DNA of 64,000 nt, taken from contig JAGRNR010000009.1 in assembly GCA_020440645.1 (NCBI GenBank), forward strand, positions 5,092 through 69,091, written 5' to 3'. The notes below the pieces were generated by a model. That model had not been told where the DNA came from. It saw only the letters and a list, made by a program, of their open reading frames with translations, and ran no database searches. The stretch is from a bacterium. GTDB taxonomy: Bacteria > 4484-113 > JAFGCY01. Shown piece by piece: positions 22,785 to 43,400 of this stretch. The translations under genes and the position numbers were made by a program. Every line of letters begins with the position of its first letter. Position 1 is the stretch's first letter.

Positions 22785-22785
22785 G

Positions 22786-27395: not shown

Positions 27396-28061
27396 GTGCC
27401 CCTATATTACTTGACAGTGCTGGCGCTCGCCGGGTTCCTGAGTGGATCCCTGCCCTTCGGCTGGCTTGTGGCGCGGCTCGGGGGCATGGACATCCGCAAG
27501 CATGGCAGCGGCAACATCGGCATGACCAATGTCTGGCGCGTGATGGGCTGGAAAGCGGGCCTGACTGTGCTGCTGCTGGACGTGGCCAAGGGCCTGCTGC
27601 CCGTGCTGCTGGCCGGGCGCCTGATGGACACCGTCAACCCACCGGGGCTGACGATCAGTGGCCGCGCCTGGCTGCTGCTGATCACCGGGCTGGCCGCGAT
27701 CCTCGGGCATACATTCACGCCCTGGCTGAAGTTCAGGGGCGGCAAGGGTGTCGCCACCAGCCTCGGTGTGCTGATCGCGCTCTACCAGTTATGGGTGTTG
27801 GCGCCGCTTGGCGTATTCCTGCTGGCGCTGGCAATCACGCGCATGGTGAGTGTCGGCAGCATCCTCGCCGCACTGAGTGTGGGCATCCTTGCGGTGGCCG
27901 TGCCGGCACTCAGGCCCTACATGGCGTTTGGCATCCCAGTGGCTCTGCTCGTGATCTGGACGCACCGCAGCAACATCCGCCGCATCCTCGACGGCACGGA
28001 AAGCCGCGTCGGCAGCGGGAAGAAAAAGCCCGCAGCGGAGTCAACCCAGGCGGATCAGTAG
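27396..28061 (+). CDS. plsY: Glycerol-3-phosphate acyltransferase PlsY
   Basis: GSLPFGWLVARL, HGSGNIGMTNVWRVMG and GHTFTPWLKFRGGKGVATSLG. Confidence 0.95.
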   Translation: MPLYYLTVLALAGFLSGSLPFGWLVARLGGMDIRKHGSGNIGMTNVWRVMGWKAGLTVLLLDVAKGLLPVLLAGRLMDTVNPPGLTISGRAWLLLITGLAAILGHTFTPWLKFRGGKGVATSLGVLIALYQLWVLAPLGVFLLALAITRMVSVGSILAALSVGILAVAVPALRPYMAFGIPVALLVIWTHRSNIRRILDGTESRVGSGKKKPAAESTQADQ

Positions 28062-29755
28062 ATCCCGGCGGAGTGGATCGAATCCAGCATTGCCGAATAG
28101 CCCGCTGACATATGCATCAGCCAGTTCGGATAGATGCCGAGGAAGATGATCGCAGCGCCGAGTGGCAACAGCACGATGGCCTCACGCAGCGGCACACGGC
28201 CCTTCGCCGACTCCGGTGCATCCCCCGGCAGCGTGCGCTGCAGCAGGCTGATCATGTACACCGCGCTCGTCAGCACGCCGATCACCGCCAGGGCCGAGAG
28301 GATCTGCAAAAGCAGGCTGCCGTCGATGCTGCCAACCAGCACCGTCTGCCAGCCCGGCCCGTTCTCGAACGCGCCCATTAAGCTGTACAGCTCGCCCCAG
28401 AAGCCGGCCAGCGCCGGGAAGCCCATGCCGGCGAAGGCCGCCAGCGAAAGCATGCCCGCCAGGAGCGGGGCCGCGCTGCCCAGCCCAGCGATCTCATGCA
28501 CGTTGCGTGTGCCGTAGCGCCGCTCGATGCTGTCCGCCAGCAGGAACAGCGTGGTGATGATCACGCCGTGGCCCACCATGTGGTAGATCGCGCCGGTCGT
28601 TGCCAGCGGGTTCATTGCGCTGCAGCCGAGGATGATGAAGCCCATGTGGCTGATCGAGCTGTAGGCGATCATGCGCTTGATGTCGGTCTGTACCAGCGTG
28701 ACAGCCGCGCCCCAGACGATGCCGATCACCGCCAGCGTGGCAACCACCGGGCCGATCGCGTAACCCTGGTCCGGCAGCGCCCAGTACAGCACGCGCAGGA
28801 ATGCGTATGTCCCGCTCTTGAGCATCACCGCCGCGAGGATCACCGACATTTCCGCCGGGGCCTGGGTATGGGCCGGCGGCAGCCAGGTGTGCAGCGGGAA
28901 CAGCGGTGCCTTGACGGCGAAGGCCACGAGGAAGCCGAGGAAGATCCACATCCTCAGCCAGGGCACGACATCCGTATAGCCCTCGTTCAGCAGGAAGGTT
29001 GCCAGGTTCGGGATCTGGAAGCTGTAAACGCCGGCGCTGATCACCTTGCAGATGATGAGCGACATCAGCATGAACACCGAGCCGGCCATGGTGTACACGA
29101 AGAAGCGGATCGCGGCGCGCGCCGCCTTCTCGCGGTCCTTGCCCCAGCCGCCGATCAGCACGTACATCGGGATCAGCATCCATTCCCAGAACAGGTAGAG
29201 CAGCACGAAGTCCAGCGCCACGAAGGAGCCGATCAGGCCGACCTGCATGAACAGGGTCAGCGCGAGGAATTCCTTCACCCGCTCCGTGCGGTACCAGCCC
29301 CAGATGATGATCAGTGGCAACAGCGCACAGGTCATCAGCACCAGTGGCAATGACAGGCCGTCGATGCCGACGTCGTAGTGCACGCTGAAGCTGCGGCTCT
29401 CGCCGATCTTGATCGCCATCCATTCGATGTCCTGGCGGTACTGGAAGCCCGGGAACTCCGCCTGGAAGGGCGTGTACTGCCCGAGCGGCTTCAGGTCCTG
29501 CACGTTCTGCGAAGTGTCCGTGTATCCGGCGTAGGGCCGCCAGCTGGTTGCACTTTCGGGCAGCCCGGTCAGCAGCAGCACCGCAAACAGCAGGCTGAGC
29601 AGCGAGAACACCAGGGCCACGATCTTGATTGGCAGGATCTTCTTCTTCGGGATCAGGCAGACCAGCAGGCAGCCGACCAGCGGGGCCAGCATCATCTGGG
29701 TGATGGGGTTGCTGATCCACGAGATGAAGCCTATGAAACTCTGCGTCTGGTCCAA
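28055..29755 (-). CDS. nuoM: Complex I antiporter-like subunit, NuoM/ND4 homologue
   Basis: LYLFWEWMLIPMYVLIGGWG, FAVKAPLFPLHTWLPPAH, VMLKSGTYAFLR, AYSSISHMGF and GFWGEL. TTG start at 29755, preceded by GGGAGGT 8 nt upstream, directly after the nuoL TAG. Confidence 0.9.
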   Translation of the reverse strand: MDQTQSFIGFISWISNPITQMMLAPLVGCLLVCLIPKKKILPIKIVALVFSLLSLLFAVLLLTGLPESATSWRPYAGYTDTSQNVQDLKPLGQYTPFQAEFPGFQYRQDIEWMAIKIGESRSFSVHYDVGIDGLSLPLVLMTCALLPLIIIWGWYRTERVKEFLALTLFMQVGLIGSFVALDFVLLYLFWEWMLIPMYVLIGGWGKDREKAARAAIRFFVYTMAGSVFMLMSLIICKVISAGVYSFQIPNLATFLLNEGYTDVVPWLRMWIFLGFLVAFAVKAPLFPLHTWLPPAHTQAPAEMSVILAAVMLKSGTYAFLRVLYWALPDQGYAIGPVVATLAVIGIVWGAAVTLVQTDIKRMIAYSSISHMGFIILGCSAMNPLATTGAIYHMVGHGVIITTLFLLADSIERRYGTRNVHEIAGLGSAAPLLAGMLSLAAFAGMGFPALAGFWGELYSLMGAFENGPGWQTVLVGSIDGSLLLQILSALAVIGVLTSAVYMISLLQRTLPGDAPESAKGRVPLREAIVLLPLGAAIIFLGIYPNWLMHMSAGYSAMLDSIHSAGIY

Positions 29756-31918
29756 CTACTCGTACCTCCCGAGGAAGCTCTGAATGATGCGCCGCAGTGT
29801 CTCGTTGAGCGGGAAGGAGACGACAATGCACATCAGCACGGCACCCAACAGCAGCACGAACATGTAGTTCTGGATCTGCCCGTTCTGCCAGTAGCGGCCG
29901 TGCAGCCGCTTGATGATCCACCAGATCTCGCAGCACCACCAGCGGATGCCGTCGACGAAGTGCAGGTCAAGCCAGGCACTGGCATTGGCCAGCCCACGGC
30001 CGCCGCGCCCGATGCGCGTTGACAGCCAGTCGATCAGGCGGATGTCTGAAATGCCTGCAAGAATTGCGAGGAACTCGCCGAAGCCGCCCACCAGTCCCGT
30101 GAAGAAGGGCTTCAAGTACAGCCCCTCGCGGAAGAATCCGGTCACGCCTGTCAAGAGCGGGGTCGGGCTGGCCAGCCCGCGCTCCGAGGCGGAGACGAAT
30201 CCAAGCACTGCGCCGGCCAGCACCAGCACGACCGAGAGGCCGGCGGCCAGTGGTTCGAAGTTGCCTGCCCATTGCAGGTCGTGCAGCCGGCCCTCGAAAT
30301 AGGCGCGGTAGGATGGCCAGAAGGCGGCGATGCCGATGCTGCCGATGAGCGCCAGCAGGATGGAAATCACAGTCGGTCCGGCCCAGCCATTGCCTGCGGA
30401 CGCTTGCTCCGCCAGGCCATTGGCAGCCTCCTTGCCGGGGGAAGGCATCAGCCCGCTCAGCAGGCGCGCACAGTAGGCTGCGGTAAAGGGAATCGATGCG
30501 ATCAGCAGCAGCGCTCCGGCCTGCCAGTAACCCGGCATGGCGGGCATTGTGCTTGCCAGTGCGTTGCCACCGTAGTCCTGTCCGGCGCGGGACAGCAGCG
30601 CGGAGAGGATCTGGTCCTTGCCGAAGTAGCCCGCCAGCCCGATCACACCGGCCAGGCTCAGGCCGGCCGGCAGCAGGGCCAGCCAGAACAGCTGTCCGCT
30701 GGCGGGGGACTGCCTAAGGTCGTCAAAACTCGGTTCGTCGTCATTATGTGTTGCCTGGGCCTCATGCCAGCGCGCCACCACAATGCCGACCGCAAGGAAC
30801 AGCGCGGCCTTGAACCAGGCATGTGCCAGCAGCTGGAATCGCGCGGCCTCCATCGCCAGCGCCCCGCTGCCCATCACGCACAGCCCAAGCTGGCTGACCG
30901 TGCTCCAGGCCAGCAGCTTCTTCGGCTGCTGCTGGCAACAGGCCACGATCGAGCCCATGAGCATCGTCAGGCCGCCGAGCATCACCGCCCAGGCCAGCGG
31001 GGCCACGTACCAGCCGGGGTTGCCACTGTCCGCCTGCACCGGCACGACAGTTCGCCCGAACAGCAGGTCACTGGCCAACAGCGGCCCGGCCGCCACCAGA
31101 GTTGCACTGTGCAGCAGGGCACTGACCGGGGCCGGGGCCACCATCGCATCCGGCAGCCAGAATGACAGCGGCAGGAGTGCTGCCTTGCCGAGCACGGCCA
31201 GCAGGACTAATAGTCCGGCCACGATCATCCAGTTCACGGCGGACAGCTGGTCCGGTACATGCTGTGCCACCCAGCCGATGCTGACCTGGCTGAGCTGCAC
31301 CATGTGCACACCGAAGCGGCCGAAGCCGAACATGAAGATGAAGATCGCGAACAGCAGCCCGAAGTCCGTGGCGCGCGTCGTCCAGAAGGCCTGGCGCGCT
31401 GCCCGGTTGGCCTCCGGCGTGCCCTTGTGGCGGATCAGCAGGTAGCCGGCGAGGCCCATCATTTCCCAGGCGATGTACAGCAGGATCAAAGTGTCACTGA
31501 CGAGGAACAGCAGCATTGAGCCGCAGAAGAATGTCAGCAGCGCATGGAATTGCGCGGCCTTCGGGTCAGCGCGCCGCTCGCGGATTGCATACAGCAACAC
31601 CGCCACGCCGATCAGGCAGGTTGTCAGGATGAACAGCACCTGCGTGTAGTCCGCGCGCAGGGCCAGCGGGATCGGCGGGAAGGCGCGGATCTCCGTGGTG
31701 TAGCCGCTGATCCAGTTGACCATCCATACCGCGCGGCCGGTCTCGGCATCCAGTCCCGCATTGACGGCGAGCGCCATCCCGGCACTGGCCACAAGCGACA
31801 GCACGCCGAGCAGGGCCGTGACGACGGCCGGCACACGGCGCATGAGCAGGCCCGCCCCCGCCGCCAGCAGCGGCAGAAGCGCGATCAGCGGCAGCAGTCC
31901 CTGCATCTCAGGCACCAC
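29756..31918 (-). CDS. nuoL: Complex I antiporter-like subunit, NuoL/ND5 homologue with a C-terminal lateral-helix region
   Basis: AWEMMGLAGYLLI, GKAALLPLSFWLPDAMVAPAPVSALLHSATLVAAG, HAWFKAALFLAVG and C-terminal FVDGIRWW...LHGRYWQNGQIQNYMFVLLLG. AGGAGG at 31927..31922 precedes in-frame GTG codons at 31918 and 31915. Confidence 0.9.
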   Translation of the reverse strand: MVPEMQGLLPLIALLPLLAAGAGLLMRRVPAVVTALLGVLSLVASAGMALAVNAGLDAETGRAVWMVNWISGYTTEIRAFPPIPLALRADYTQVLFILTTCLIGVAVLLYAIRERRADPKAAQFHALLTFFCGSMLLFLVSDTLILLYIAWEMMGLAGYLLIRHKGTPEANRAARQAFWTTRATDFGLLFAIFIFMFGFGRFGVHMVQLSQVSIGWVAQHVPDQLSAVNWMIVAGLLVLLAVLGKAALLPLSFWLPDAMVAPAPVSALLHSATLVAAGPLLASDLLFGRTVVPVQADSGNPGWYVAPLAWAVMLGGLTMLMGSIVACCQQQPKKLLAWSTVSQLGLCVMGSGALAMEAARFQLLAHAWFKAALFLAVGIVVARWHEAQATHNDDEPSFDDLRQSPASGQLFWLALLPAGLSLAGVIGLAGYFGKDQILSALLSRAGQDYGGNALASTMPAMPGYWQAGALLLIASIPFTAAYCARLLSGLMPSPGKEAANGLAEQASAGNGWAGPTVISILLALIGSIGIAAFWPSYRAYFEGRLHDLQWAGNFEPLAAGLSVVLVLAGAVLGFVSASERGLASPTPLLTGVTGFFREGLYLKPFFTGLVGGFGEFLAILAGISDIRLIDWLSTRIGRGGRGLANASAWLDLHFVDGIRWWCCEIWWIIKRLHGRYWQNGQIQNYMFVLLLGAVLMCIVVSFPLNETLRRIIQSFLGRYE

Positions 31919-31953
31919 CCACCTCCTGCTGTGTCGTCGTCATCTGCAAGTCG

Positions 31954-32439
31954 TCAATCCTTCATCAGGTTGGCATCATCAAGCATGATGCTCTTCTTCA
32001 TGCGGTAGAAGGCGATGATGATCGCCAGCCCGACCGCAGCCTCAGCCGCAGCAACGATGATCACGAATATCGAGAACACCTGGCCCATGTTCGTCATCAC
32101 GGATTCCTCCGCGGTGAACGAGGCCAGGGTGGATTTCGGTCCGTAGTAGAAGTTGAACGCGCTCATGTTGATGTTGACGGCGTTGAGCATCAGCTCCAGC
32201 GCCAGCAGCATCCCGATCGCATTGCGCCGCGCGATCACGCCGTACAGCCCGAGGCAGAAGATGAACGCGCTGAGCACGAAGTACTGGTGGTAGTCCACGT
32301 TGGTGAACCACACCATCGGCGTGTCGCCACTTGAGGCGAACCACTGGCGCGAGGCGAACTCGATCGCCTGGATGATCGGCGCCAGGCCCTCGCTCGCCAG
32401 CGAGCCACCCTCGGACTGTTGCAGCAGCAGCAGTAACAT
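31954..32439 (-). CDS. nuoK: NuoK/ND4L homologue, extended (161 aa versus about 100)
   Basis: RRNAIGMLLALELMLNAVN and VAAAEAAVGLAIIIAFYR. The ATG at 32439 overlaps the nuoJ stop (TGATG). The track ORF (to 32652) is over-extended. Confidence 0.85.
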   Translation of the reverse strand: MLLLLLQQSEGGSLASEGLAPIIQAIEFASRQWFASSGDTPMVWFTNVDYHQYFVLSAFIFCLGLYGVIARRNAIGMLLALELMLNAVNINMSAFNFYYGPKSTLASFTAEESVMTNMGQVFSIFVIIVAAAEAAVGLAIIIAFYRMKKSIMLDDANLMKD

Positions 32440-33485
32440 CAGTCCTTCCTCACCAGGATGATCGCGCCGAGCATCGCCATGAGCAGGAGCACGCTGGCCA
32501 CTTCGAAGGGAAGTGTGTACGTTGCCATCAGCGACCAGCCGATGGCCTGGGTATTGCTTGTCAGTACTGCCGCACTGGGCGGGAACTCGGTGTTCTGCGG
32601 GAACTGCATGAACATCCCGACGAGCGCCATGAAGCCGAACAGCATCGTGCACAAAAGCGCGGCCCAGGGGCTCAGGTCAGTGTTCTGCCTGAGCTCGGTG
32701 CCGATGATGTTCTGGCTGACCATGATGCCGAACAGGAACAGCACCATGATGCCGCCGATGTAGATGATCACCTGCACCATCGCGAGGAACTCAGCGTTGA
32801 GCAGGATGAAGTAGCCGGCCACGCCGAACAGCGAAAGGATCAGCATCAGCGCGGAGTGGAACACGTTGCGCATCGTTACGCAACCGATGCCGCCGCCGAC
32901 CACGCCCGCCGTGAACAGCCAGAAGAAGAAGTTCAGCAGCCTGAGCGCGGGCACGCTGAGTGCCAGCATGCCCCAGAAGAAGGCGATGAAGCCAACGACT
33001 GTGAGGATTGCCAGCAGGCGCCGGTGGTCATGGAAGCGGTGCAGCGAAAGCTGCACGCAGGCGATCGTGCCGCCGACCAGCCCGAGGATCAGCATATTTG
33101 AAAGGTTGACAACCAGCGGCTGGAACAGCAGGGAGCTGATCACGAACACCGCCAGGCCAGCGCTGGCTGCCACCCGCAGCAGTCCGGCCTCCGCCGGCAG
33201 GCGGTTGAACAGCATCAGGTTCAGCAGGTAGAAGCCGGCGAGCATGCTGGCGCCCACCAGGATGCGTGCGTCCAGCTGCAAGGCCGCGGACCAGTCCAGT
33301 TTTCCACCCAGCGCTGCCAGCGGGGCGGCCAGCAGCGCCACAAGCACCGCGATCCCGGCCGTTGCCAGCAGCTGGCGGAAGATGCCGTCCAGCCGGTTGA
33401 CGAGCAGTCCGGCGGCCGCCAGCAACGCGGCCAGCAGGGCCACATTGCGCAGCAGCATAAGGGCGGCGGGCAGGCTGGTTTCCAT
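32439..33485 (-). CDS. nuoJ: NuoJ/ND6 homologue with an N-terminal multi-TM extension of about 170 aa
   Basis: The C-terminal half carries RNVFHSALMLILSLFGVAGYFILLNAEFLAMVQVIIYIGGIMVLFLF and PFEVASVLLLMAMLGAI. The N-terminal half is extra hydrophobic helices. Confidence 0.85.
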   Translation of the reverse strand: METSLPAALMLLRNVALLAALLAAAGLLVNRLDGIFRQLLATAGIAVLVALLAAPLAALGGKLDWSAALQLDARILVGASMLAGFYLLNLMLFNRLPAEAGLLRVAASAGLAVFVISSLLFQPLVVNLSNMLILGLVGGTIACVQLSLHRFHDHRRLLAILTVVGFIAFFWGMLALSVPALRLLNFFFWLFTAGVVGGGIGCVTMRNVFHSALMLILSLFGVAGYFILLNAEFLAMVQVIIYIGGIMVLFLFGIMVSQNIIGTELRQNTDLSPWAALLCTMLFGFMALVGMFMQFPQNTEFPPSAAVLTSNTQAIGWSLMATYTLPFEVASVLLLMAMLGAIILVRKD

Positions 33486-34480
33486 CAGGAACTCACCTCC
33501 CCGCGTGGCCGCCTGAGCGGCAGCACCAGCGCCTCGCGATTGGCAACCGGCATCGCCCAGCGCTCCTCGAACACGACGAGCGGGGTGCCGTCCGCGCGCT
33601 TCAGTTCGCCCAGCGCGGGATCATGGTCATAGCGTCCGAGGTCAACGAACAGCACCGTCGGCTGCCCGGGGGCCTGCGCGATTGCACCGCTGCCATCGGC
33701 GGCGATGATGCGCAGCGCTTCCTCCTCAGTCAGTGAGTCGACATTCAAGAGCGGCACGCCGCGGTAGGCCGCCGGCAGCTTCGGCCGGCTGCGCGGATAG
33801 TCCTCGGTGAAGGGCTCGCTCGAAGCCATCCGGGCGGTCTCGCGGAAGCCGGTCAGCACGGAGGTGCCGTAGCGGTGCACGCGGTTGCTGAAGAACCAGA
33901 ATTGGCTGAAGCCGGTTGCAAGGTAGCTCAGGTTGAGCACGAACACCAGGAACCAGAACAGCGCCCAGAGCATGAAGTAGCCGAGCTGGAACTTGAACAC
34001 GGGGAGGCTGCCGGTCTCGCGCCAGATGGCGAAGCCCTCGCCGCTGAGCAGAAGCGTCAGGTTCGGCGTGTCGGCAATGCCCTTCACGCTCATCTTCGGG
34101 TGGATGCGGTCCAGCGGGTCGAATTCCACGATGAAGAAGAACAGGATGATCACGAACAGCAGCAGACGCCAGAGCGTGAAGTCGCGCACCATCCAGCGGC
34201 TGTACTTCACAAGCGCGCCGGATGCCCACCAGAAGAAGCCGAGAATCGCCGGCAGGGCCAGCAGCAGGCCGCTAGCAGTGAACCACATCAGAGAGTACTG
34301 CTCGGAGGGCTGCTTGGAGGCATAGTCGTCAAACAGCGCGCCGTATTTCGTGTAGACGAACACCAACGTGAACCAGGACACGGCGATGAAGCCATAGAAC
34401 TTGAACCAGTCCATCGCGGTGTAGCCGAACCAGCGCTTCGGCAGCGGATGGTGGATTGTCAGGTCATGCCCGTCAGGCAT
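33485..34480 (-). CDS. Unknown polytopic membrane protein with a soluble C-terminal domain (331 aa), embedded in the complex I-like operon
   Basis: The ATG at 34480 (MPDGHDL) overlaps the upstream stop by 8 nt, and its own stop overlaps the nuoJ ATG (TGATG). Trp/Phe-rich TM segments. No cysteine at all, so it is not a NuoI ferredoxin. Confidence 0.75.
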   Translation of the reverse strand: MPDGHDLTIHHPLPKRWFGYTAMDWFKFYGFIAVSWFTLVFVYTKYGALFDDYASKQPSEQYSLMWFTASGLLLALPAILGFFWWASGALVKYSRWMVRDFTLWRLLLFVIILFFFIVEFDPLDRIHPKMSVKGIADTPNLTLLLSGEGFAIWRETGSLPVFKFQLGYFMLWALFWFLVFVLNLSYLATGFSQFWFFSNRVHRYGTSVLTGFRETARMASSEPFTEDYPRSRPKLPAAYRGVPLLNVDSLTEEEALRIIAADGSGAIAQAPGQPTVLFVDLGRYDHDPALGELKRADGTPLVVFEERWAMPVANREALVLPLRRPRGEVSS

Positions 34481-34943
34481 GCTGCACCTCCTCCACCGTT
34501 TCCGGCTCGTTGGCAGCACTGCCGCCCGCTCCTGCTGCGGCGATGTTGCGCAGCTGGGCATGGTGCCCGGGCGCCGTCACCACGAACCAGTAGAGGAAGC
34601 CGGGCAGCAACAGCAGCACCGGCCGCAGTGTGAACTGCAGTTCGTACTGCAGCCACAGCGAATACAGGCAGCCGCAGGCCGCGAAGCTCCACAGCAGGGA
34701 AGCGATGCCGGGCCGCCGCCTGAACCAGGGGTTGATCCAGGCCGCATTGCGCGCCGGCGTCAGCGGCAGCACCGCCAGCAGCAGGCCGATTGCCAGCAGG
34801 GCCAGCGGGCCGAACCACTGCGTTGTCAGCACGGGTGCCACTCCAAGCACGATGCGCAGGTACAGGCCCCAGGCCCCGGCGGCCACGAGCAGCAGCTCTC
34901 CGAGGAGATGCAGCAGGTTCTGGCTGGTTGACAGCATCCTCAT
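34473..34943 (-). CDS. Unknown small membrane protein (156 aa, about 4 TM), embedded in the complex I-like operon
   Basis: The ATG at 34943 overlaps the nuoH stop (ATGA). Sequence MRMLSTSQNLLHLLGELLLVAAGAWGLYLRIVLGV... The track ORF (to 35042) is over-extended into nuoH. Confidence 0.7.
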   Translation of the reverse strand: MRMLSTSQNLLHLLGELLLVAAGAWGLYLRIVLGVAPVLTTQWFGPLALLAIGLLLAVLPLTPARNAAWINPWFRRRPGIASLLWSFAACGCLYSLWLQYELQFTLRPVLLLLPGFLYWFVVTAPGHHAQLRNIAAAGAGGSAANEPETVEEVQHA

Positions 34944-36715
34944 CCGGTCCAGCTCACCTCCCGGCGGGGCTGCGGATGTCGGCGCTGCACGAACAGGATG
35001 CGCCAGGCCATCAGGAGGATGAACAGGCCGAAGAACAGGCACAGCACGTTGTAGCCCCAGAAGAAGGCCTTCTCGGGGACTGTCATCACCGCCAGTGCTT
35101 CAGCTGTTGTCAGCGTCTGGTACTGGGTGACGCGCTGCAGGGCGGTCACGTCGACATCGGAGACGGCCAGCTGGTTCGCGCTGAACCAGGGATGGCGGTT
35201 GACGACGCCGAGCGCGGTGGCCGCCATCACGACCACGCTGGCCGGCAGCAGGAACTTCCAGGAGAAGAACATGATCTGGTCCACGCGGATGCGCGGCATC
35301 GTGGAGCGCGCCCATATGAAGAAGAAGCACACGGCGTAGGTCTTCAGCAGGAACCAGAACAGGCTCGTCAGCCACAATCCGTCGGGGCCGAGGAACATCG
35401 GGCCCTTCCAGCCGCCGAAGAAGCAGACGGTCATGATCGCGCTGACGATGAACACGTTGGAGTACTCGGCGACATAGAACAGCGCGAAGCGCATCCCGCT
35501 GTACTCCACCAGGTAGCCGCCCAAGAGCTCGTTCTGCGCTTCCGGCAGGTCAAAGGGCGGGCGGTTGGTCTCGGCAAGGCTGACAACGAGGTAGATGATG
35601 AAGGCCGGGAACAGCGGCAGGATGCCCCAGGTCATCGTCTGGCGCTGCACGATCTCCGTCAGGTTCAGCGAACCGGCAAAGATGGCAACGCACAGCAGGC
35701 TCATCAGCATCGGGATTTCGTAGGTCAGCAGCATCGCGGCCTCGCGCATCGCGCCGACCAGTGCATATTTGTTGTTGGAGGCGTAGCCGGACATGATCAC
35801 GGCCACGAGGAACATCGCAAAGTCGGCGATGATCAGGAGCAGGCCGACATTCAGGTCCTGGATCATGTAGTAGATGATCTGCCCGTCGACAGCCGCCACG
35901 CCGAACGGGATCACCACCCAGCTCAGGAGCGCCGGCAGGTAGACGAGGATCGGCGCGATCAGGTACAGCAGCTTGTCAGCGCTGAGCGGAACGGTGTCTT
36001 CCTTGAAGAAGATCTTGATCGTGTCGTAGAAGCCCTGGCGCCAGTAGTAGCGCAGCATGTAGCTCATGTAGAGCACGAAGGCGACCACGGTGCACAGCAC
36101 GGTGAGCTGCGGCAAAAACGGGATGTGCGCCTTCGGGATGAAGCCCAGCAGGAGAGCGACGAGCATGCCACCGCAGGACGCGAGGGATGGCCAGGCCAGC
36201 AGTGACAGCAGCGTTGCCAGGAAGCGCCAGACGGAGGTCTGCGCGGCCTGCATCCGGCCGAGCGCTGGCAGGATCATCAAGCGGTTGATCAGCCCCATCA
36301 TGCCCACGGCGAAGAACAGGATGATCCAGCCGCCGAACTGTTGCCAGCCGGCGGTGCCGCCGGTCCAGTAGTTGATGCCGTACAGCAGCGCGGGCAGGCC
36401 GATCAGCACGCCGATCTGCAGGAAGATCCGCCGGAAGCGCTGCGGGGTGACCTCGCCGTACTCCTGCGGGCCGCGGCGGCCCTGCATGCGCGCCATCAGG
36501 CGGCGTTCCCAGACCTGCAGGCCGATGGTGATCATCAGCTCCAGGAGGAAGATCAGCAGGAGCGCCGTCACCAACATGATGCCGTTGGCAACCTCCGGGC
36601 TGAAGCGCAGGCCGGGCAGCGGCTCGGTGTTGAGCCAGGCGCGCATCGCCTCCCAGACGGTGCGGGCCTCGTCCATGTCGTAGCGCTGCTGCAGGATTGC
36701 CAGCATCGGGAGCAT
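34940..36715 (-). CDS. nuoH: NuoH/ND1 homologue, enlarged (591 aa) by a multi-TM insertion after TM1
   Basis: WERRLMARMQGRRGPQ, then about 170 inserted residues, then IKIFFKED, SLAETNRPPFDLPEAQNELLGGYLVEYSG and ARSTMPRIRVDQ. The ATG at 36715 overlaps the nuoD stop (TGATG). Confidence 0.85.
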   Translation of the reverse strand: MLPMLAILQQRYDMDEARTVWEAMRAWLNTEPLPGLRFSPEVANGIMLVTALLLIFLLELMITIGLQVWERRLMARMQGRRGPQEYGEVTPQRFRRIFLQIGVLIGLPALLYGINYWTGGTAGWQQFGGWIILFFAVGMMGLINRLMILPALGRMQAAQTSVWRFLATLLSLLAWPSLASCGGMLVALLLGFIPKAHIPFLPQLTVLCTVVAFVLYMSYMLRYYWRQGFYDTIKIFFKEDTVPLSADKLLYLIAPILVYLPALLSWVVIPFGVAAVDGQIIYYMIQDLNVGLLLIIADFAMFLVAVIMSGYASNNKYALVGAMREAAMLLTYEIPMLMSLLCVAIFAGSLNLTEIVQRQTMTWGILPLFPAFIIYLVVSLAETNRPPFDLPEAQNELLGGYLVEYSGMRFALFYVAEYSNVFIVSAIMTVCFFGGWKGPMFLGPDGLWLTSLFWFLLKTYAVCFFFIWARSTMPRIRVDQIMFFSWKFLLPASVVVMAATALGVVNRHPWFSANQLAVSDVDVTALQRVTQYQTLTTAEALAVMTVPEKAFFWGYNVLCLFFGLFILLMAWRILFVQRRHPQPRREVSWTG

Positions 36716-37866
36716 CACTTGTCGACCTCCCCGATCATGATGTCGAGGCTGCCGTAGATCACGAACAGGTCCGCCAGCAGGTAGCCGCGGCACAGCTCGT
36801 CCAGCAGGAACAGGTGGTACAGGCTCGGCGCACGCAGGTGCATGCGGCTCGGGCGGTTGCTGCCGTCGCTGACGAGTGTCAGGCCGAGCTCGCCGCGCGG
36901 GCTCTCGACCGCCGTGTAGACCTCGCCGCGTGAGACCTGCATCGCAGCGAAGTCTGGGCTGACATCCGCCGCCCGCAGCTCGCCGTTGTCAATGTAAGCC
37001 AGGCAGTGCTCAATGATGCGCAGGCTCTCGCGCATCTCGACGAAGCGCACGCGGTAGCGGTCCAGCACATCGCCATACTCGCCGGTCGGCACATGCAGCT
37101 CCAGCTCGCCGTACATCGCATAGGGCTGGTCGCGGCGCAGGTCATGCGCGATCCCGCTGCCGCGCAGCACGGGCCCGGTGGCACCGTGCTCGAAGGCGAA
37201 CTCGGGCTCGAGCGTGCCGATCAGCTCGCTGCGGTTGACCCAGATCGCGTTGTCAGAGAAGAAGTCCTCGTATTCATCCAGCCGGCCCTGGAACCACAGG
37301 CAGAATGCCCGCACATGGCCGCTGAAGTCCTCCGGCGGGGCAGTGCGCACGCCGCCGGGCACGATCCAGCCGTGGTGGTGGCGGTGCCCGCTGAGCATCT
37401 CCAGCAGGTCGAGCAGCATCTCGCGCTCGCGCAGCGAGATGAAGATCGGGGTGTAGGCGCCGGCCTCCAGGCCGAGGTTGCCAAACCAGAACAGGTGGTT
37501 GCCGATCCGGCTCAGCTCCAGCACAAGGGTGCGCAGCCACTGCGCACGGGCCGGAACCGTGATCCCCTCGATGCGCTCGATGGCGTCCGCCACCAGCCAG
37601 TCCGCATTGCTGCCGGCCAGCCACTCGCAGCGGGACAACAGCCCCGCCGCCTGGGCGTAGTTGCGCTGGGTCACCAGCTGCTCCACGCCGCGGTGCATGA
37701 AGCCGACCTCCGGCGTGATGCGCTCGATCAGCTCGCCGTCCGCCTGTACCCGCAGTTCCAGCGGGCTCGGCAGGCTCGGATGCTGCGGGCCGACGGAGTA
37801 GACCAGCTTCTCGGTCAGCAGCGGGTCGCGGCGGATCTCGACACGGCGATCAGAGCTGCGCGTCAT
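36715..37866 (-). CDS. nuoD: NuoD / 49-kDa / NiFe-hydrogenase-large-subunit-like protein lacking quinone-ligand and NiFe-ligand residues
   Basis: GPQHPSLPSPLEL (canonical GPQHPxxHGVLRL), GFMHRGVE, SRCEWL (canonical RxDY), REREMLLDLLE, SPRGELG, RAPS and C-terminal DIMIGEVDK. GGGAGGTG lies 6 nt before the ATG at 37866. Confidence 0.85.
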   Translation of the reverse strand: MTRSSDRRVEIRRDPLLTEKLVYSVGPQHPSLPSPLELRVQADGELIERITPEVGFMHRGVEQLVTQRNYAQAAGLLSRCEWLAGSNADWLVADAIERIEGITVPARAQWLRTLVLELSRIGNHLFWFGNLGLEAGAYTPIFISLREREMLLDLLEMLSGHRHHHGWIVPGGVRTAPPEDFSGHVRAFCLWFQGRLDEYEDFFSDNAIWVNRSELIGTLEPEFAFEHGATGPVLRGSGIAHDLRRDQPYAMYGELELHVPTGEYGDVLDRYRVRFVEMRESLRIIEHCLAYIDNGELRAADVSPDFAAMQVSRGEVYTAVESPRGELGLTLVSDGSNRPSRMHLRAPSLYHLFLLDELCRGYLLADLFVIYGSLDIMIGEVDK

Positions 37867-38431
37867 CAAGCACCTCCCGCATCGCCGCGTCCGCGCGCTG
37901 TTTCAGCACGTTTTCAGCGTAGTTCTCATGTGAGGCAGCCCTGAACTCCCGCCTGAGCGGGAAGCCCTGCAGCTGCGGGTCGAGGATCAGGCCAATGAGG
38001 TTAGGGTTGCCGGCGAAGGGGATGCCGAAGAACTCGAAGATCTCGCGCTCCATCAGCTCCGTGGCCCGCCAGATCAGGCTCAGGCTGGGGTGCACGCTCT
38101 GCCCGGCATAGGCCGGCGCGGCCTCGCTGTCCTCCCCGCCCGGATCCGTTGCCGGGGGATTGCCCTCCAGCAGGGTGAATTTCCATTTCAGTGTGAGGCT
38201 GACGTCATGCCGCCTGCCGTGCCTGAGCGTCAGGTAGAGGTGGAAGTCCGGCCCGCCGAGGTGGTTGGCGGTCATGTTCAGCGCACGGATGAAGCCGATG
38301 TTCTTCAGCTGGCGGCAGACCAGCGGCAGCTGGCCGCTGTCCGTCAGGATCGCCCAGCCGCGGGCGGGGTCCAGCAGCAGCACATCACCGCAGTCCTCAC
38401 GGATCTGACCGGCAAGCTCATCAGGGAGCAC
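37850..38431 (-). CDS. nuoC: NuoC / 30-kDa subunit homologue
   Basis: SLSLIWRATELMEREIFEFFGIPFAGNPNL and GFPLRREF. GGAGG lies 5 nt before the GTG at 38431. The track uses the TTG at 38434. Confidence 0.8.
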   Translation of the reverse strand: MLPDELAGQIREDCGDVLLLDPARGWAILTDSGQLPLVCRQLKNIGFIRALNMTANHLGGPDFHLYLTLRHGRRHDVSLTLKWKFTLLEGNPPATDPGGEDSEAAPAYAGQSVHPSLSLIWRATELMEREIFEFFGIPFAGNPNLIGLILDPQLQGFPLRREFRAASHENYAENVLKQRADAAMREVLDDAQL

Positions 38432-38537
38432 CAAGTCCTCCCCATCCTGGCTGGATTACGGCAATCGGCATACAGGTATAAACGATCAAAAGCCCCACAG
38501 CGTTACCTTATACATACAAAATGCAAAGGCTTTTGTA

Positions 38538-40836: not shown

Positions 40837-40884
40837 CGGGCGGGCGCGTCAGTGCTTTGTGATATACATGGGGAGGAGGCAGGC

Positions 40885-41250: not shown

Positions 41251-41313
41251 CGGGAAGGATTTCGGCGCTCGCTTGTCGGCAGTAGCGGGCGCGCTTGGCG
41301 ACGCCATGGAGTG

Positions 41314-41471
41314 ATTGCCGCGAAGCAATGAGTGATGGTGTGTTGGTCTGCAGACCAACAGGGCCCTGTGGCTCTCAAGAGCCACACTCCGCCGCGTGCG
41401 CGCAGCCACGCGGAAAGCCCCTCTGCAATGAGCAATGCGGAGCAAGCAATGAGCCCGACGACACTCATTGC
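41314..41471. repeat. Cluster of five hairpins/palindromes with recurring GCAATGAG motifs in a 490-bp non-coding gap between convergent genes
   Basis: Hairpins: attgc..gcaat (41314..41329); a perfect 20-bp palindrome tgttggtctgcagaccaaca (41341..41360); tgtggctct ca agagccaca (41367..41386); ccgcgtg..cacgcgg (41392..41413); gcaatgag..ctcattgc (41446..41471). The motif gcaatgag occurs at 41325, 41425 and 41446. Confidence 0.6.
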
Positions 41472-41741
41472 CAGACTCTGCGGCTCTGCGTTCACCAATA
41501 TCGCTCCACCCCAGCCGCATTGCCAACCAAGTGCAGGCTAGCCTCAGCCCAGTCAAACTGGAGAATTGTCAACACAGAGCCACCGAGCGCACAGAGTTTT
41601 CTGATCAGCTCCAGTCCCCGCATTTCCCTGACTTCGCTGCATCCCCTCCCAATCGCGGCTGGGCCGCGCCGGTTCTTCCGGTAACCCTGACCCTTGTTCT
41701 TCAGGTTGACTGATTCACTGGGAAATCCGAGACGAGCCAGT

Positions 41742-42539
41742 CTATGAATACAGAAGATCCTCAAAATCCTCCGTCAGCTCTCCATGGAAAGTAGGGTAGT
41801 CAACCCTCCGGACATTGCGCCGCCATGGTCGCGGCCCCAGCTCGCTGCTTGTAAGCAGCTTGAGGTGAAGCGGATCGACATCTGTTGCCAGGCTGCATTC
41901 CGATCCGATGATCCCGTCTTTGTCCATGAAGTCCGTGTTTGGCCAGATATTGAAACTGCGACCGGATGACGTCCGGATCGAAGTCGGATTGAAGCCCATG
42001 GCAATCTCCATGGCATTGTAGCTTTCCCTGCGGATATCCAGCGGCAGGGCAAACCTTGACTGCTCAACATGCGCTGCATCCGACAATGCAGACTCTCCCT
42101 TTTGCCATTCGGGAAGGGGCATCGAGGCACTCAGGATGACAAAGGCCTTCTCTTGCCAGACGCCCGCATGATCCCTGACACAGCATGGGAACATCAGCCA
42201 CTTCATCCGCCGTTGAAACGCCGCGAATCCCACGCTGCCAATGTTCAGCAGCAGTTCCGCAAGCACTTTCGCCGGTTTCTCCATACCGGCATCCCAGGAC
42301 CTGGCCTTATCCAGGCAGCCTGCCGGAATTCTGAGCAGAAATCCCGATGCATGATCGAGATACCAGTCGGCATTGCATCTGGTGCAGATGTGCAGGATTC
42401 CGCGTTGCCAGCTTTCCCTGCGGATGATGAGCTTGTGCAGTTTGAAGTATGGGGTTTCCTCCCGGACACTTGCAGGAGGATCAGGATCCCAGGGGAGTGA
42501 TTCCCTGACCTGACAAGGGCAGCTGGCCTTGATACTCAT
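41742..42539 (-). CDS. Hypothetical Cys-rich protein (265 aa), lower GC, 19 nt downstream of nuoB
   Basis: Clean ORF MSIKASCPCQVRES...HICTRCNADWY..., with possible Zn-ribbon-like CPC/CxxC pairs. Codon third positions are visibly less GC-rich than in the neighbours. Confidence 0.6.
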   Translation of the reverse strand: MSIKASCPCQVRESLPWDPDPPASVREETPYFKLHKLIIRRESWQRGILHICTRCNADWYLDHASGFLLRIPAGCLDKARSWDAGMEKPAKVLAELLLNIGSVGFAAFQRRMKWLMFPCCVRDHAGVWQEKAFVILSASMPLPEWQKGESALSDAAHVEQSRFALPLDIRRESYNAMEIAMGFNPTSIRTSSGRSFNIWPNTDFMDKDGIIGSECSLATDVDPLHLKLLTSSELGPRPWRRNVRRVDYPTFHGELTEDFEDLLYS

Positions 42540-42558
42540 GGTTCATGGTAATGCGATC

Positions 42559-43011
42559 CTACCGCCACGCAAACCGCTCATCCAGCGCACCCGAGAGGAT
42601 GCGCTCCCGGAGCGCGATGATGCCGTCGATCAGCTGCTCGGGCCGCGGCGGGTCGCCCGGCACATAGATGTCCACTGGTACGATGCGGTCCACTCCCCCG
42701 TCCACCGCATAGCTGCCGTCGAAGGGCGCGCCGCTGATCGCCCCCGCGCCAAACGCCATCACGAAGGCCGGGTCGGCCATCGAGGCATGCAGCCGGCGGA
42801 TCACCGGGGCCATCTTGTTGTTGACGACGCCGGCCACGATCAAAAGGTCCACCTGGCGCGGGCTGGGGCGCATCACCTCAGAGCCGAAGCGCGCGATGTC
42901 ATAGCGCGGCGAGATCGCGCTGAACAGTTCCAGCGTGGCGTAGTCCAGTCCGAGCATCAGCGGCCACAGGGAATGGGCACTGGCCTCGCGGATGAGGTCC
43001 TTCAGACCCAT
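42559..43011 (-). CDS. nuoB: NuoB / PSST / hydrogenase-small-subunit-like protein with no cysteine (N2 cluster ligands all replaced)
   Basis: SLWPLMLGLDYATLELFS (canonical SLWPxxFGLACCAIEMM), SPRQVDLLIVAG, NKMAPVIRRL, FGAGAISGAPF (canonical MGACASSGG) and VDIYVPGDPPRPE (canonical VPGCPPRPE). There are zero Cys in 150 aa. Confidence 0.85.
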   Translation of the reverse strand: MGLKDLIREASAHSLWPLMLGLDYATLELFSAISPRYDIARFGSEVMRPSPRQVDLLIVAGVVNNKMAPVIRRLHASMADPAFVMAFGAGAISGAPFDGSYAVDGGVDRIVPVDIYVPGDPPRPEQLIDGIIALRERILSGALDERFAWR

Positions 43012-43400
43012 TCCAGCGCTCCCTTGCGGTAGGCATAGGCCCAGCCGACGAGCAGGATGCCGAGGAACACGAACATCTCGCCCAGTGAGGCGGCCCCGAT
43101 CGGCGTGAAGGTGATGTCGTCATTGCCGAACACCAGCAGCCGGAAAGCGGTGGCCCAGGGGAAGATGAACATGATGTCCACGTCGAACATGAGGAACACG
43201 ATCGCGAGGATGTAGAAGCGGATGTTGAAGCGCACCAGCGCATCGCCGGTGGCCTGCGCGCCGGATTCATAGCTCAGGCGCTTGAGGAAGTTCGGCCGCC
43301 GCGGACGCCACAGGTTCAGGAAAGCGAATGCCAGCCCGATCAGCACCGCCCCGCCCAGCAGGAAGAGTGCCACCCAGTTGTACTGTCCAACGGTGTTCAT
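43002..43400 (-). CDS. nuoA: NuoA/ND3 homologue
   Basis: LSYESGAQATGDALVRFNIRFYILAIVFLMFDVDIMFIFPWA. A 10-nt overlap with nuoB. Confidence 0.85.
   Translation of the reverse strand: MNTVGQYNWVALFLLGGAVLIGLAFAFLNLWRPRRPNFLKRLSYESGAQATGDALVRFNIRFYILAIVFLMFDVDIMFIFPWATAFRLLVFGNDDITFTPIGAASLGEMFVFLGILLVGWAYAYRKGALEWV

What the first reader, a model, noticed from the sequence alone, without database searches (positions are those of the whole stretch)
28055..43400. Complex I-like membrane module that appears to lack every redox cofactor site
Co-oriented genes encode homologues of complex I subunits A and B (43400..42559) and C, D, H, J, K, L, M (38431..28055). Several things are missing or changed. 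(1) There is no NuoE/F/G NADH-dehydrogenase module, no NuoI ferredoxin subunit and no third antiporter subunit NuoN in the window. (2) The NuoB homologue has no cysteine. (3) The NuoD homologue lacks both the quinone-ligand residues and the hydrogenase NiFe cysteines. (4) I find no CxxCxxCxxxCP-type motif in any ORF of the locus. In contrast, the ion-translocating parts look intact. The M homologue keeps FWE, VKAP, LKSG and FWGE. The L homologue keeps AWE, GKAA, HSAT, HAWFKA and a C-terminal lateral-helix region. The H homologue keeps [16 protein letters not shown]. This pattern suggests selection on the membrane arm and on a cofactor-free peripheral scaffold, not a decaying operon. Cofactor-poor relatives of complex I and group-4 hydrogenases have been proposed from comparative genomics (the Ehr family, energy-converting hydrogenase related). 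Whether this locus belongs there or is a further reduced lineage with new subunits is open. As inference, it could be an ion-motive-force-coupled conformational machine or a cation antiporter using a dead Q-module as a cap or regulator.
Basis: partly seen in the sequence, partly recalled or inferred. Interest (0 to 1): 0.88.

Follow-up and report, generated by a model that had tools for sequence, protein, structure and literature searches.

The report
Redox-dead complex I-like membrane machine
This locus encodes a conserved relative of respiratory complex I that keeps the whole ion-translocating membrane machinery but has lost every iron-sulfur and quinone ligand, so it very probably moves ions without doing any redox chemistry.

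Summary
Eleven co-oriented, translationally coupled genes encode NuoA, B, C, D, H, J, K, L, M homologues plus two unannotated membrane proteins. NuoB has no cysteine: the N2 ligands CC/C/C are now YA/G/D. NuoD has Pro and Trp in place of the quinone-ligand His and Tyr. No nuoE/F/G/N is present.

NuoI is not missing. The 331-aa "unknown" gene between nuoH and nuoJ is a NuoI homologue that has lost all eight cluster cysteines and is fused to an N-terminal membrane domain.

About 40 protein clusters from uncultured bacteria share this architecture. A rarer sister clade keeps the ligands of just one NuoI cluster. The nearest canonical relatives keep all ligands. dN/dS against a 90%-identical relative is 0.06-0.47, and B and D are among the most constrained genes. 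All charged residues of the proton pathways are kept.

It is Nuo-derived, not Ehr, and I found no description of it in the literature. My best reading (inference) is a gradient-driven cation/proton exchanger that uses a cofactor-free Q-module as lid or regulator. The organism matches closed MAG CP060262.1 ("Planctomycetales bacterium").

The parts
43002..43400 (-). nuoA-like gene (132 aa, 3 TM). The TM1-2 loop reads YESG where canonical NuoA has YECG. The TM2 FDVD acidic pair is kept.
   Evidence: Pfam Oxidored_q4 1e-27. Motifs. dN/dS 0.06 vs L003. Overlaps nuoB by 10 nt.
42559..43011 (-). nuoB-like gene (150 aa) with no cysteine. The N2 ligands are replaced: GLACCAxE is now GLDYATLE, GxCA is GAGA, and PGCPP is PGDPP.
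   Evidence: Pfam Oxidored_q6. Alignment to Nqo6/PSST. Same replacements in L001-L004 and L086. dN/dS 0.15. 100% identical to MCB1186400.1/UNM09588.1.
37850..38434 (-). nuoC-like gene (194 aa). Only the C-terminal half matches the family model. The N-terminal half is conserved within the clade only.
   Evidence: Pfam Complex1_30kDa 1e-15, residues 112-168..
36715..37866 (-). nuoD-like gene (383 aa from the ATG). Quinone-site residues in Thermus numbering: His38 is Pro, Tyr87 is Trp, Asp139 is Glu, Phe146 is Ile, and the Arg of RPGG is Val. There are no NiFe cysteines.
   Evidence: dN/dS 0.15. Passes the NCBIfam NF004739 cut-off (386 vs 360), so pipelines name it NuoD.
34940..36715 (-). nuoH-like gene (591 aa, about 13 TM). 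It carries a ~135-aa transmembrane insertion in the TM1-TM2 loop, which lines the Q tunnel in complex I, and a C-terminal extension with one TM. The TM5-6 loop [26 protein letters not shown] is kept, except that one Glu is Gln.
34473..34943 (-). Family-specific small membrane protein 'unkS' (156 aa, about 4 TM), annotated hypothetical. It is conserved at 31-66% identity in clade 1 and absent from clade 2.
   Evidence: No Pfam or NCBIfam hit. Orthologues in L001, L003, L004 and L086. GGAGG Shine-Dalgarno site and a 4-nt overlap with nuoH. dN/dS 0.47.
33485..34480 (-). nuoI-derived gene 'I*' (331 aa). The N-terminal ~200 aa form a membrane domain (4 long helices). The C-terminal ~125 aa form a NuoI/ferredoxin-fold domain with none of the eight cluster cysteines. 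It sits in the nuoI slot between nuoH and nuoJ.
32439..33485 (-). nuoJ-like gene (348 aa). The C-terminal ~160 aa are canonical NuoJ with the TM3 motif YIGGIMVLFLF. The first ~120 aa (extra TMs) occur only in this sub-branch.
   Evidence: Pfam Oxidored_q3, residues 199-344..
31954..32439 (-). nuoK-like gene (161 aa). Both membrane glutamates are kept (LELMLNA, AAAEAAVG). A ~60-aa N-terminal extension is conserved in clade 1.
29756..31915 (-). nuoL-like antiporter-type subunit (719 aa). The TM5 Glu, TM7 Lys, TM8 His, TM11 Lys and TM12 Lys are kept, as are the C-terminal lateral helix and last TM.
   Evidence: Pfam Proton_antipo_M 7e-46. NCBIfam NuoL model aligned 8-699 to 4-608/615, but below the cut-off. 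Motifs.
28055..29755 (-). nuoM-like antiporter-type subunit (566 aa). The TM5 Glu, TM7 Lys, TM8 Lys and TM12 Glu are kept. It is the last gene of the operon and no nuoN follows.
   Evidence: Pfam 9e-69. NCBIfam TIGR01972 450 bits against a cut-off of 264. Motifs. Next gene is a convergent plsY.

Best explanation
What is shown. The locus encodes a complete, expressed-looking derivative of an 11-subunit-type complex I: A, B, C, D, H, I*, J, K, L, M plus one new small membrane subunit. Every known redox site has been replaced by non-ligand residues. That covers cluster N2 in NuoB, both 4Fe-4S clusters in NuoI, and the quinone His/Tyr in NuoD. The third antiporter-like subunit NuoN and any electron-input module are absent from the operon. 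The proton-pathway residues of H, A, J, K, L and M are intact. The whole set is conserved under purifying selection in a distinct bacterial lineage.

What is inferred. With no way to take up or pass on electrons, the only available energy source is an ion gradient. I therefore think the complex works as a secondary, Mrp-like cation/proton exchanger. Protons would enter through the NuoL/NuoM half-channels and the central charged axis. A counter-ion would move through the E-channel region (H/A/J/K plus the new transmembrane parts).

The cofactor-free B-C-D-I* cap would remain because its loops form and gate the cavity above NuoH. It acts as a lid, or as a ligand-responsive regulator.

The transmembrane hairpin in the NuoH TM1-2 loop, the membrane domain of I*, and unkS probably fill the place left by NuoN and re-shape the former quinone tunnel.
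For: - Homology and order of all subunits.
- Loss of N2 ligands.
- Loss of Q ligands.
- NuoI relic without Cys.
- No nuoE/F/G/N and no ferredoxin motif in the window.
- Same 10-11-gene architecture in L001, L002, L003, L004, L086/87, L088 and L090.
- Family size is about 40 clusters at 90% identity for both D and I*.
- dN/dS is 0.06-0.47, with B and D at 0.15.
- All Lys/Glu/His of L and M, both Glu of K, NuoJ TM3 and the NuoH TM5-6 loop are kept in every member.
- Each gene has a GGAGG site and overlaps or abuts its neighbour.
- The identical proteins occur in independent assemblies.
- Precedents in the literature: the deactive, non-turning-over form of mitochondrial complex I acts as a Na+/H+ antiporter (PMC3464577); Mrp antiporters are built from the same L/M/K/J-like modules (PMC7419157).
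Against: - There is no direct evidence for ion exchange or for which ion moves.
- A, B and D are the most constrained subunits (97, 93 and 91% identity to L003, against 70% for L). That is more than a passive lid would seem to need.
- Trp at the Tyr position is invariant, and Asp/Tyr/Asp at the former N2 site are conserved. This hints at a specific new role for the cavity.
- Ordinary Mrp antiporters do the same job with far fewer parts.
- Whether the genome also holds a canonical complex I, quinones or a separately encoded partner could not be checked.
Confidence: 0.5

Rival explanations
1. A proton-motive-force-driven machine that acts on a hydrophobic ligand. The former quinone tunnel has been remodelled by the NuoH hairpin, the Trp-for-Tyr change, the new beta1-beta2 loop and the membrane-anchored I*. 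It would bind a lipid, isoprenoid or quinone-like molecule and either transport it or sense it. The L/M modules would supply or dissipate energy.
For: - The cavity-forming subunits A, B and D are the most strongly conserved.
- Clade-specific substitutions cluster at the Q site: L33, P36, S79, E82, W83, E135, V170.
- The insertion lies exactly in the NuoH TM1-2 loop, which lines the tunnel entry.
- Trp is invariant in about 40 clusters.
Against: - No candidate ligand, and no conserved neighbouring biosynthetic or transport genes across loci.
- The His position is variable (P/A/V/T/I/C/S). Clade 2 uses different residues again (W and I). This looks more like filling a site than building a new one.
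Confidence: 0.2
2. It is still a redox enzyme. It would use a cofactor that does not need the canonical cysteines, for example a metal bound by the conserved Asp/Tyr/Asp of NuoB and Cys81 of NuoD, or a tightly bound quinone or flavin. Alternatively it would use an electron-input partner encoded elsewhere in the genome.
For: - The replacements at the N2 site are conserved rather than random: D-Y-A / G / D in clade 1.
- Cys81 (SRCEW) and Cys360 of NuoD are (nearly) invariant.
- Clade 2 keeps exactly the four ligands of one NuoI cluster.
- The rest of the genome was not searched.
Against: - No chain of centres remains to bridge the roughly 30-40 Å from the NuoI surface to the cavity.
- Clade 1 has no Cys at all in B or in the I* ferredoxin domain.
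- No input-module gene lies in any of seven loci.
- The Q-site acid/base pair His/Tyr is gone.
Confidence: 0.1
3. A structural or regulatory remnant with no transport role of its own. Examples would be a scaffold or assembly platform for another membrane complex, or a paralogue that modulates a canonical complex I encoded elsewhere.
For: A second complex I in the genome could not be excluded. Pseudoenzyme paralogues commonly act as regulators (general knowledge).
Against: - Every charged residue of the proton pathways is kept in about 2,000 residues of membrane protein across deep divergence. A mere scaffold would not be expected to keep them.
- There are eleven translationally coupled genes.
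Confidence: 0.07
4. It is a member of the already named Ehr (energy-converting hydrogenase related) family.
For: Like Ehr, its NuoD-like subunit lacks catalytic ligands and the complex has antiporter-like subunits (PMC6349859).
Against: [quoted passage not shown]
- Here D is twice as close to complex I as to MbhL or HycE in bit score.
- A, C and J are present in nuo order.
- The sister group is a canonical nuo operon.
Confidence: 0.03
5. A decaying operon or a sequencing/assembly artefact.
For: None found.
Against: - All ORFs are intact.
- Identical proteins occur in NCBI, ENA and Logan assemblies, including a closed 4.1-Mb chromosome.
- dN/dS is well below 1.
- About 40 divergent clusters share the same substitutions.
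Confidence: 0.01

Closest known systems
11-subunit-type bacterial complex I / NDH-1 (nuoABCDHIJKLMN without nuoEFG)
   Same: It has homologues of A, B, C, D, H, I, J, K, L and M in the same gene order. The proton-pathway residues and the NuoL lateral helix are kept. The nearest relatives (P0043-46, L084) are of this type, with D directly followed by H.
   Different: - No NuoN.
- No N2, N6a or N6b ligands, and no Q-site His/Tyr.
- NuoI is fused to a membrane domain.
- Transmembrane insertion in the NuoH TM1-2 loop; extended K (and J here).
- One new small membrane subunit.
Mrp (CPA3) cation/proton antiporters
   Same: The function would be non-redox. Both are built from NuoL/M-like (MrpA/D) and NuoK-like (MrpC) modules and a NuoJ-like element, with the same Lys/Glu chain (PMC7419157). 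This is the mechanism I consider most likely here.
   Different: Mrp has no NuoH, A, B, C, D or I homologues, and it has MrpB/E/F/G. None of the Mrp-specific small subunits was detected here.
[quoted passage not shown]
   Same: Both are members of the complex I superfamily whose NuoD-like subunit has lost its catalytic ligands. Function is unknown in both.
   Different: Ehr branches with group 4 hydrogenases and has Ech/Hyf-like subunits. It is assumed to be redox-driven with a partner such as formate dehydrogenase (PMC6349859, PMC7894505). The present family is Nuo-derived and lacks even the Fe-S ligands.
Deactive mitochondrial complex I
   Same: It is a complex I whose ion-transfer domain runs uncoupled from redox chemistry, as a Na+/H+ antiporter (PMC3464577). 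It is a functional precedent for what a permanently redox-dead complex I could do.
   Different: That is a reversible state of a fully cofactor-loaded enzyme, not an evolved cofactor-free protein.

Membership tests
Respiratory complex I / NDH-1 (Nuo type) | Homologues of core subunits A, B, C, D, H, I, J, K, L, M in nuo gene order | tested here: met
Respiratory complex I / NDH-1 (Nuo type) | Three antiporter-like subunits (L, M and N) | tested here: not met
   Only L and M are present. A canonical NuoN query hits only the M gene weakly. The operon ends after M in all seven loci.
Respiratory complex I / NDH-1 (Nuo type) | Four Cys ligands of cluster N2 in NuoB | tested here: not met
   0 Cys. 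The ligands are Y-A / G / D. Of the 150 nearest representatives, 147 keep the Cys (alignment register is shifted by one column; the listed non-ACCC/SCCC patterns were not individually inspected); P0165 is a junk concatemer.
Respiratory complex I / NDH-1 (Nuo type) | Two CxxCxxCxxxCP motifs (N6a/N6b) in NuoI | tested here: not met
   There are no Cys in the ferredoxin-like domain of I*. Clade 2 keeps the ligands of one cluster only.
Respiratory complex I / NDH-1 (Nuo type) | Quinone-site His38/Tyr87 (Thermus numbering) in NuoD | tested here: not met
   His is Pro here and variable in the clade. Tyr is Trp, invariant. Asp139 is Glu.
Respiratory complex I / NDH-1 (Nuo type) | Electron-input module (NuoEFG, FpoF, NdhS/ferredoxin site or similar) | tested here: inconclusive
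   It is absent from the window and from all related loci. The rest of the genome (CP060262.1) could not be searched with these tools.
Respiratory complex I / NDH-1 (Nuo type) | Conserved charged residues of the proton-translocation pathways | tested here: met
   L (E, K, H, K, K), M (E, K, K, E), K (E, E), J TM3, H TM5-6 loop, A TM2.
Ehr complexes | [quoted passage not shown] | tested here: not met
   The NiFe ligands are absent, as in every complex I. The affiliation is with Nuo: 49-kDa subunit 2.6e-84 against MbhL 4e-44 and HycE 5e-32. NuoA/C/J are present and the sister operon is canonical. Definition taken from PMC6349859 and PMC7894505.
Mrp (CPA3) antiporter | MrpA/D-type antiporter subunits plus MrpC (NuoK-like), with conserved Lys/Glu | tested here: met
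   L, M and K homologues with all key residues. NCBIfam Mrp models match only below their cut-offs.
Mrp (CPA3) antiporter | MrpB/E/F/G subunits and no peripheral arm | tested here: not met
   None of unkS, the I* membrane domain or any other ORF matches a Pfam or NCBIfam model at all. A full B-C-D-I* peripheral set is present.
Mrp (CPA3) antiporter | Cation/proton antiport activity | not testable with these tools
   Needs transport assays or complementation.
Group 4 [NiFe] hydrogenase | RxCGxC and DPCxxC NiFe-binding motifs in the large subunit | tested here: not met
   The corresponding stretches read MHRGVEQ and SLDIMIGEVDK.

The most novel reading that the evidence does not exclude
A complex I descendant that has given up redox chemistry altogether and now uses the ion-motive force in reverse through its L/M modules to drive conformational work in the former quinone chamber. 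That chamber has been rebuilt with transmembrane hairpins in NuoH, a membrane-anchored cofactor-free NuoI and an invariant Trp. This would be a new class of gradient-powered transporter or mechanotransducer for a hydrophobic substrate, not a simple antiporter.
Probability: 0.2. Interest if true: 0.95.

Novelty: new variant of a known kind. Interest (0 to 1): 0.82.

Why it matters
How quinone chemistry in the peripheral arm of complex I is transmitted to proton pumps up to 200 Å away is still debated.

- **A natural separation-of-function variant.** Here evolution has deleted all redox centres. It has kept, under strong selection, the Q-module fold, the coupling loops, the E-channel and two pump modules. 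Its structure and activity would show what the conformational machinery does on its own.
- **Evolution run backwards.** It would give a living example of the route from a redox pump back towards an Mrp-like antiporter.
- **Annotation.** Annotation pipelines call these proteins 'NADH-quinone oxidoreductase subunit B/D' and call the NuoI relic 'hypothetical'. Metabolic reconstructions of these uncultured bacteria therefore wrongly credit them with a respiratory complex I.

Tried and rejected
- **Ehr membership.** Rejected on sequence affinity, subunit set and sister group.
- **The 265-aa Cys-rich ORF, the PAS-histidine kinase-receiver gene and the TfoX-like gene between nuoB and nuoC as subunits.** Rejected. 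The operon is contiguous in L001, L002 (where it carries only a toxin-antitoxin insert), L004, L086 and L088. The insert differs in L003. The kinase is absent in CP060262.1.
- **Decay or artefact.** Rejected.
- **Profile of the I* family against PDB sequences alone.** It gave only E = 1.7 to NdhI. Homology needed profile-profile comparison, fold comparison and the clade-2 intermediate.
- **unkS.** No Pfam or NCBIfam match.
- **A correction to my own reading.** My first reading of the NuoB tandem Cys as 'D-Y' was off by one. The register from HMMER is A-C-C to D-Y-A.
- **Taxonomy.** There is no rRNA or tRNA in the window. The Zodletone MAG paper does not list bin 1143. NCBI names are only 'bacterium' or 'Planctomycetales bacterium'.
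- **Literature.** Searches on 'Ehr' were swamped by electronic health records. Nine searches found no description of a cofactor-less Nuo-type complex. The library lacks most subscription journals, including Marreiros et al. 2013.
- **First tree attempt.** It timed out and was redone with my own distance code.
- **A second, canonical complex I in the same genome.** This could not be tested. No canonical NuoD from the 2.7-Mb or 1.9-Mb contigs appeared among the best hits, but those lists are truncated.

Full report
**The observation**

The window is high-GC (about 63%). Between 28055 and 43400, all on the minus strand, Pfam recognises:
- NuoA (43002-43400), NuoB (42559-43011), NuoC (37850-38434), NuoD (36715-37869), NuoH (34940-36793 as an ORF);
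- NuoJ (32439-33485), NuoK (within 31954-32652), NuoL (29756-31918) and NuoM (28055-29755).

E-values run from 1e-15 to 3e-97.

Using gene calls from an independent assembly that carries identical proteins, every gene starts at an ATG, GTG or TTG preceded by a GGAGG-type site. Each gene overlaps or abuts the previous gene by 1-10 nt, and none has an internal stop. The two unannotated genes between nuoH and nuoJ follow the same pattern. These are 34473-34943 (156 aa, 'unkS') and 33485-34480 (331 aa, 'I*').

**The missing cofactor sites**

NuoB contains no cysteine. Its ungapped alignment to Thermus Nqo6 and to mitochondrial PSST (E 6e-38) shows three changes:
- GLACCAIE has become GLDYATLE;
- GACASSGG has become GAGAISGA;
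- PGCPPRPE has become PGDPPRPE.

NuoD aligns end to end with the 49-kDa subunit (E 2.6e-84). That is far better than with MbhL (4e-44) or HycE (5e-32). In Thermus numbering:
- the beta1-beta2 loop STHGV reads SLPSP, so His38 is Pro;
- DRxDY reads SRCEW, so Tyr87 is Trp;
- Asp139 is Glu, Phe146 is Ile, and the Arg of RPGG is Val.

The importance of Y87, F146, D401, H38 and D139 is taken from PMC4758237.

No CxxCxxCxxxCP motif occurs in a genuine reading frame anywhere in the 64 kb. ORFs from five canonical nuo operons find no NuoE, F, G, I or N counterpart in the window. The only hit of a NuoN query is a weak one to the M gene.

**NuoI is not missing**

The 331-aa gene occupies the nuoI slot. 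It has four long N-terminal helices followed by an alpha/beta domain (AF2 with a 31-sequence alignment, mean pLDDT 82.4).

Its family consensus contains SVLTGFRETA..PVT..YP.....LP..FRGVP.L. This is the N-terminal signature of NuoI.

Four lines of evidence support the homology:
- Profile-profile comparison with an 18-sequence NuoI alignment gives 91.9% probability, E 6.8e-7, over 114 columns that span both ferredoxin motifs.
- The orthologue in a sister clade (L088) matches more than 25 NuoI chains directly, with E. coli NuoI at E 3.6e-7. It matches the window protein at 1e-4.
- That intermediate keeps only the 'CP' of motif 1 and the 'CxxCxxC' of motif 2. By the usual ferredoxin ligand swap (my knowledge), these are the four ligands of a single cluster.

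The window protein has no cysteine in this domain at all.

**A conserved family, not decay**

The NuoD search returns a sharply separated group of about 40 clusters at 56-95% identity. Then there is a drop to 46% (four clusters with canonical ligands), followed by ordinary NuoD at about 42%.
- Every full-length member of the group in which the motifs could be read has Trp at the Tyr position.
- Every member has a non-His residue (P/V/A/T/I/C/S) at the His position.
- Of the roughly 200 other NuoD clusters inspected, only the clade-2 pair also lacks both ligands; for about 40 of them the pattern search read only one of the two positions.

The I* protein has 43 clusters, none annotated and none found outside this context.

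Gene neighbourhoods show the same order in every case, never followed by nuoN and never with nuoEFG:
- L001 (a 2.7-Mb contig);
- L002 (GCA_020849855.1);
- L003 and L004 (the only two GTDB species representatives found);
- L086/L087;
- L090.

The order is A-B-C-D-H-(unkS)-I*-J-K-L-M.

Against L003 (90% identical NuoD, dS 0.24-0.63), dN/dS is as follows:

| Gene | A | B | C | D | H | unkS | I* | J | K | L | M |
|---|---|---|---|---|---|---|---|---|---|---|---|
| dN/dS | 0.06 | 0.15 | 0.27 | 0.15 | 0.25 | 0.47 | 0.34 | 0.32 | 0.20 | 0.39 | 0.22 |

The neighbouring plsY gives 0.25.

Identical NuoB, unkS and I* proteins occur in NCBI, ENA and Logan assemblies. One of these is the closed 4.11-Mb chromosome CP060262.1, labelled 'Planctomycetales bacterium'. 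Sequencing error is therefore excluded.

**A second clade and the origin of the family**

I scored the window NuoB against 1.84 billion representatives. Among the best 150, only two real proteins lack the N2 cysteines: the clade representative and P0167.

P0167 belongs to L088, which has an A-B-C-D-H-I*-J-K-L-M operon, again without N. There:
- NuoB reads SED / G / S;
- NuoD has Trp and Ile at the His and Tyr positions;
- NuoH lacks the hairpin insertion.

This clade is rare: one further cluster.

A neighbour-joining tree of NuoD (367 columns, 100 bootstraps) gives clade 1 at 100/100 and clade 1 + clade 2 at 84/100. The canonical P0043-46 group lies nearby without strong support. That group (L084):
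- has a normal CC/C/C NuoB;
- has a NuoH without the insertion but with the same type of C-terminal tail;
- has nuoD directly followed by nuoH, the 11-subunit arrangement without nuoEFG.

The simplest history is this. An 11-subunit-type complex I lost NuoN and fused NuoI to a membrane domain. It then lost its clusters stepwise.

**What was kept and what was added**

Across both clades and five canonical references, the following are all present:
- TM5 Glu, TM7 Lys, TM8 Lys/His and TM12 Lys/Glu of L and M, and the TM11 Lys of L;
- both glutamates of NuoK;
- the NuoJ TM3 motif;
- the FD(V)D/E pair of NuoA;
- the NuoH TM5-6 loop.

The only exceptions are that one Glu of EAExEL in NuoH is Gln or Ser, and YECG in NuoA is YESG.

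The following have been added in clade 1:
- a 50-140-aa transmembrane insertion in the NuoH TM1-TM2 loop, and a C-terminal extension with one TM;
- a ~60-aa N-terminal extension of NuoK;
- unkS;
- the I* membrane domain;
- in the window and L003 only, about 120 extra N-terminal residues of NuoJ.

In complex I, the NuoH TM1-2 loop lines the quinone tunnel (established structural knowledge). Its interruption by membrane helices, together with the changed beta1-beta2 loop, implies a remodelled cavity.

**Mechanism**

The steps shown are these. There are no ligands for any known redox centre. The ion pathways are intact. The whole assembly is under strong purifying selection, and most strongly on A, B and D.

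The rest is inferred. Without electron transfer the machine can only be driven by, or dissipate, an ion gradient. The closest working models are:
- Mrp antiporters, built from the same modules (PMC7419157);
- the deactive state of mitochondrial complex I, which behaves as a Na+/H+ antiporter once the ion-transfer domain is disconnected from the redox domain (PMC3464577).

I therefore favour a cation/proton exchanger in which the B-C-D-I* cap survives as the lid and gate of the E-channel cavity (about 0.5).

The high conservation of the cavity-forming subunits keeps two other readings alive. One is a gradient-driven machine acting on a hydrophobic ligand (about 0.2). The other is an unconventional redox site or partner (about 0.1). 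The operon has no conserved neighbours that point to a substrate.

**Comparison with known systems and novelty**

It fails five defining features of complex I: N2, N6a/b, the Q-site ligands, NuoN, and an input module in the locus. It meets the subunit-homology and proton-pathway features.

It is not Ehr. Ehr is defined by affinity to group 4 hydrogenases (PMC6349859, PMC7894505).

It is not Mrp either, because it has a peripheral arm and no MrpB/E/F/G.

NCBIfam cut-offs are passed by B, D and M. Public annotation therefore calls these proteins NADH-quinone oxidoreductase subunits, while I* and unkS are 'hypothetical'.

Nine full-text searches found no description of a Nuo-type complex without Fe-S ligands or without NuoN. 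The caveat is that much of the bioenergetics literature is not in the searchable library.

I rate it a new variant of a known kind (the complex I superfamily) with a probably new function, and of high interest to the field.

**Limits**

- Function is untested.
- The tree is distance-based.
- The helix counts come from a hydropathy sketch.
- No multimer model could be made.

Noticed in passing
window 38435-42558: The operon is split between nuoB and nuoC by about 4 kb of unrelated genes. These are a small membrane ORF (38657-39025, +), a hybrid PAS-HisKA-HATPase-receiver kinase (38983-40836, +), a TfoX_N-like gene (40852-41250, +) and a Cys-rich 265-aa ORF (41742-42539, -; CxC..CxxC..CC, no Pfam). 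The content of this gap varies. L003 has different genes, and CP060262.1 lacks the kinase. More distant relatives have no gap. It looks like an insertion hotspot inside an operon.
   Followed up: partly
window 43454-52914 (- strand): Four tandem paralogous lipoprotein-like genes with PKD repeats and a PPC (pre-peptidase C-terminal) domain lie immediately upstream of nuoA. The one at 45676-47172 seems to have lost its N-terminal part to a separate ORF (47443-47790), which may be a frameshift or pseudogene.
   Followed up: no
L088 13562-14626: The clade-2 NuoI* keeps exactly one cysteine of ferredoxin motif 1 (the CP) and three of motif 2 (CxxCxxC). These are the ligand set of a single 4Fe-4S cluster, with no neighbouring clusters left. 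It could be an isolated, possibly structural or sensing cluster, or a snapshot of stepwise loss.
   Followed up: partly
L002 13956-14569: A nucleotidyltransferase/HepT-like toxin-antitoxin pair is inserted between nuoH and I* in one relative. That relative also lacks unkS at that place.
   Followed up: no
window 20914-24068: A MotA/MotB/FliL-like gene trio lies a few kb from the locus, so another ion-driven machine is nearby. The FliL-like gene is also next to the locus in CP060262.1 (L090).
   Followed up: no
window 1631-4180 and 57969-60305: There are two large ankyrin-repeat proteins. The second sits in a low-GC stretch (0.567 against about 0.63), which suggests foreign origin.
   Followed up: no
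NuoD residues C81, C289, C360 (window 36715-37866): Three cysteines are invariant or nearly invariant within clade 1. One of them lies two residues before the Trp that replaces the quinone-ligand Tyr (SRCEW). They are not at NiFe-ligand positions, and their role is unknown.
   Followed up: no
P0165: A 533-aa 'NuoB-like' representative is a triple concatemer of a chloroplast ndhK-like fragment with repeated flanks. It is an assembly or gene-call artefact in the public protein collection.
   Followed up: no
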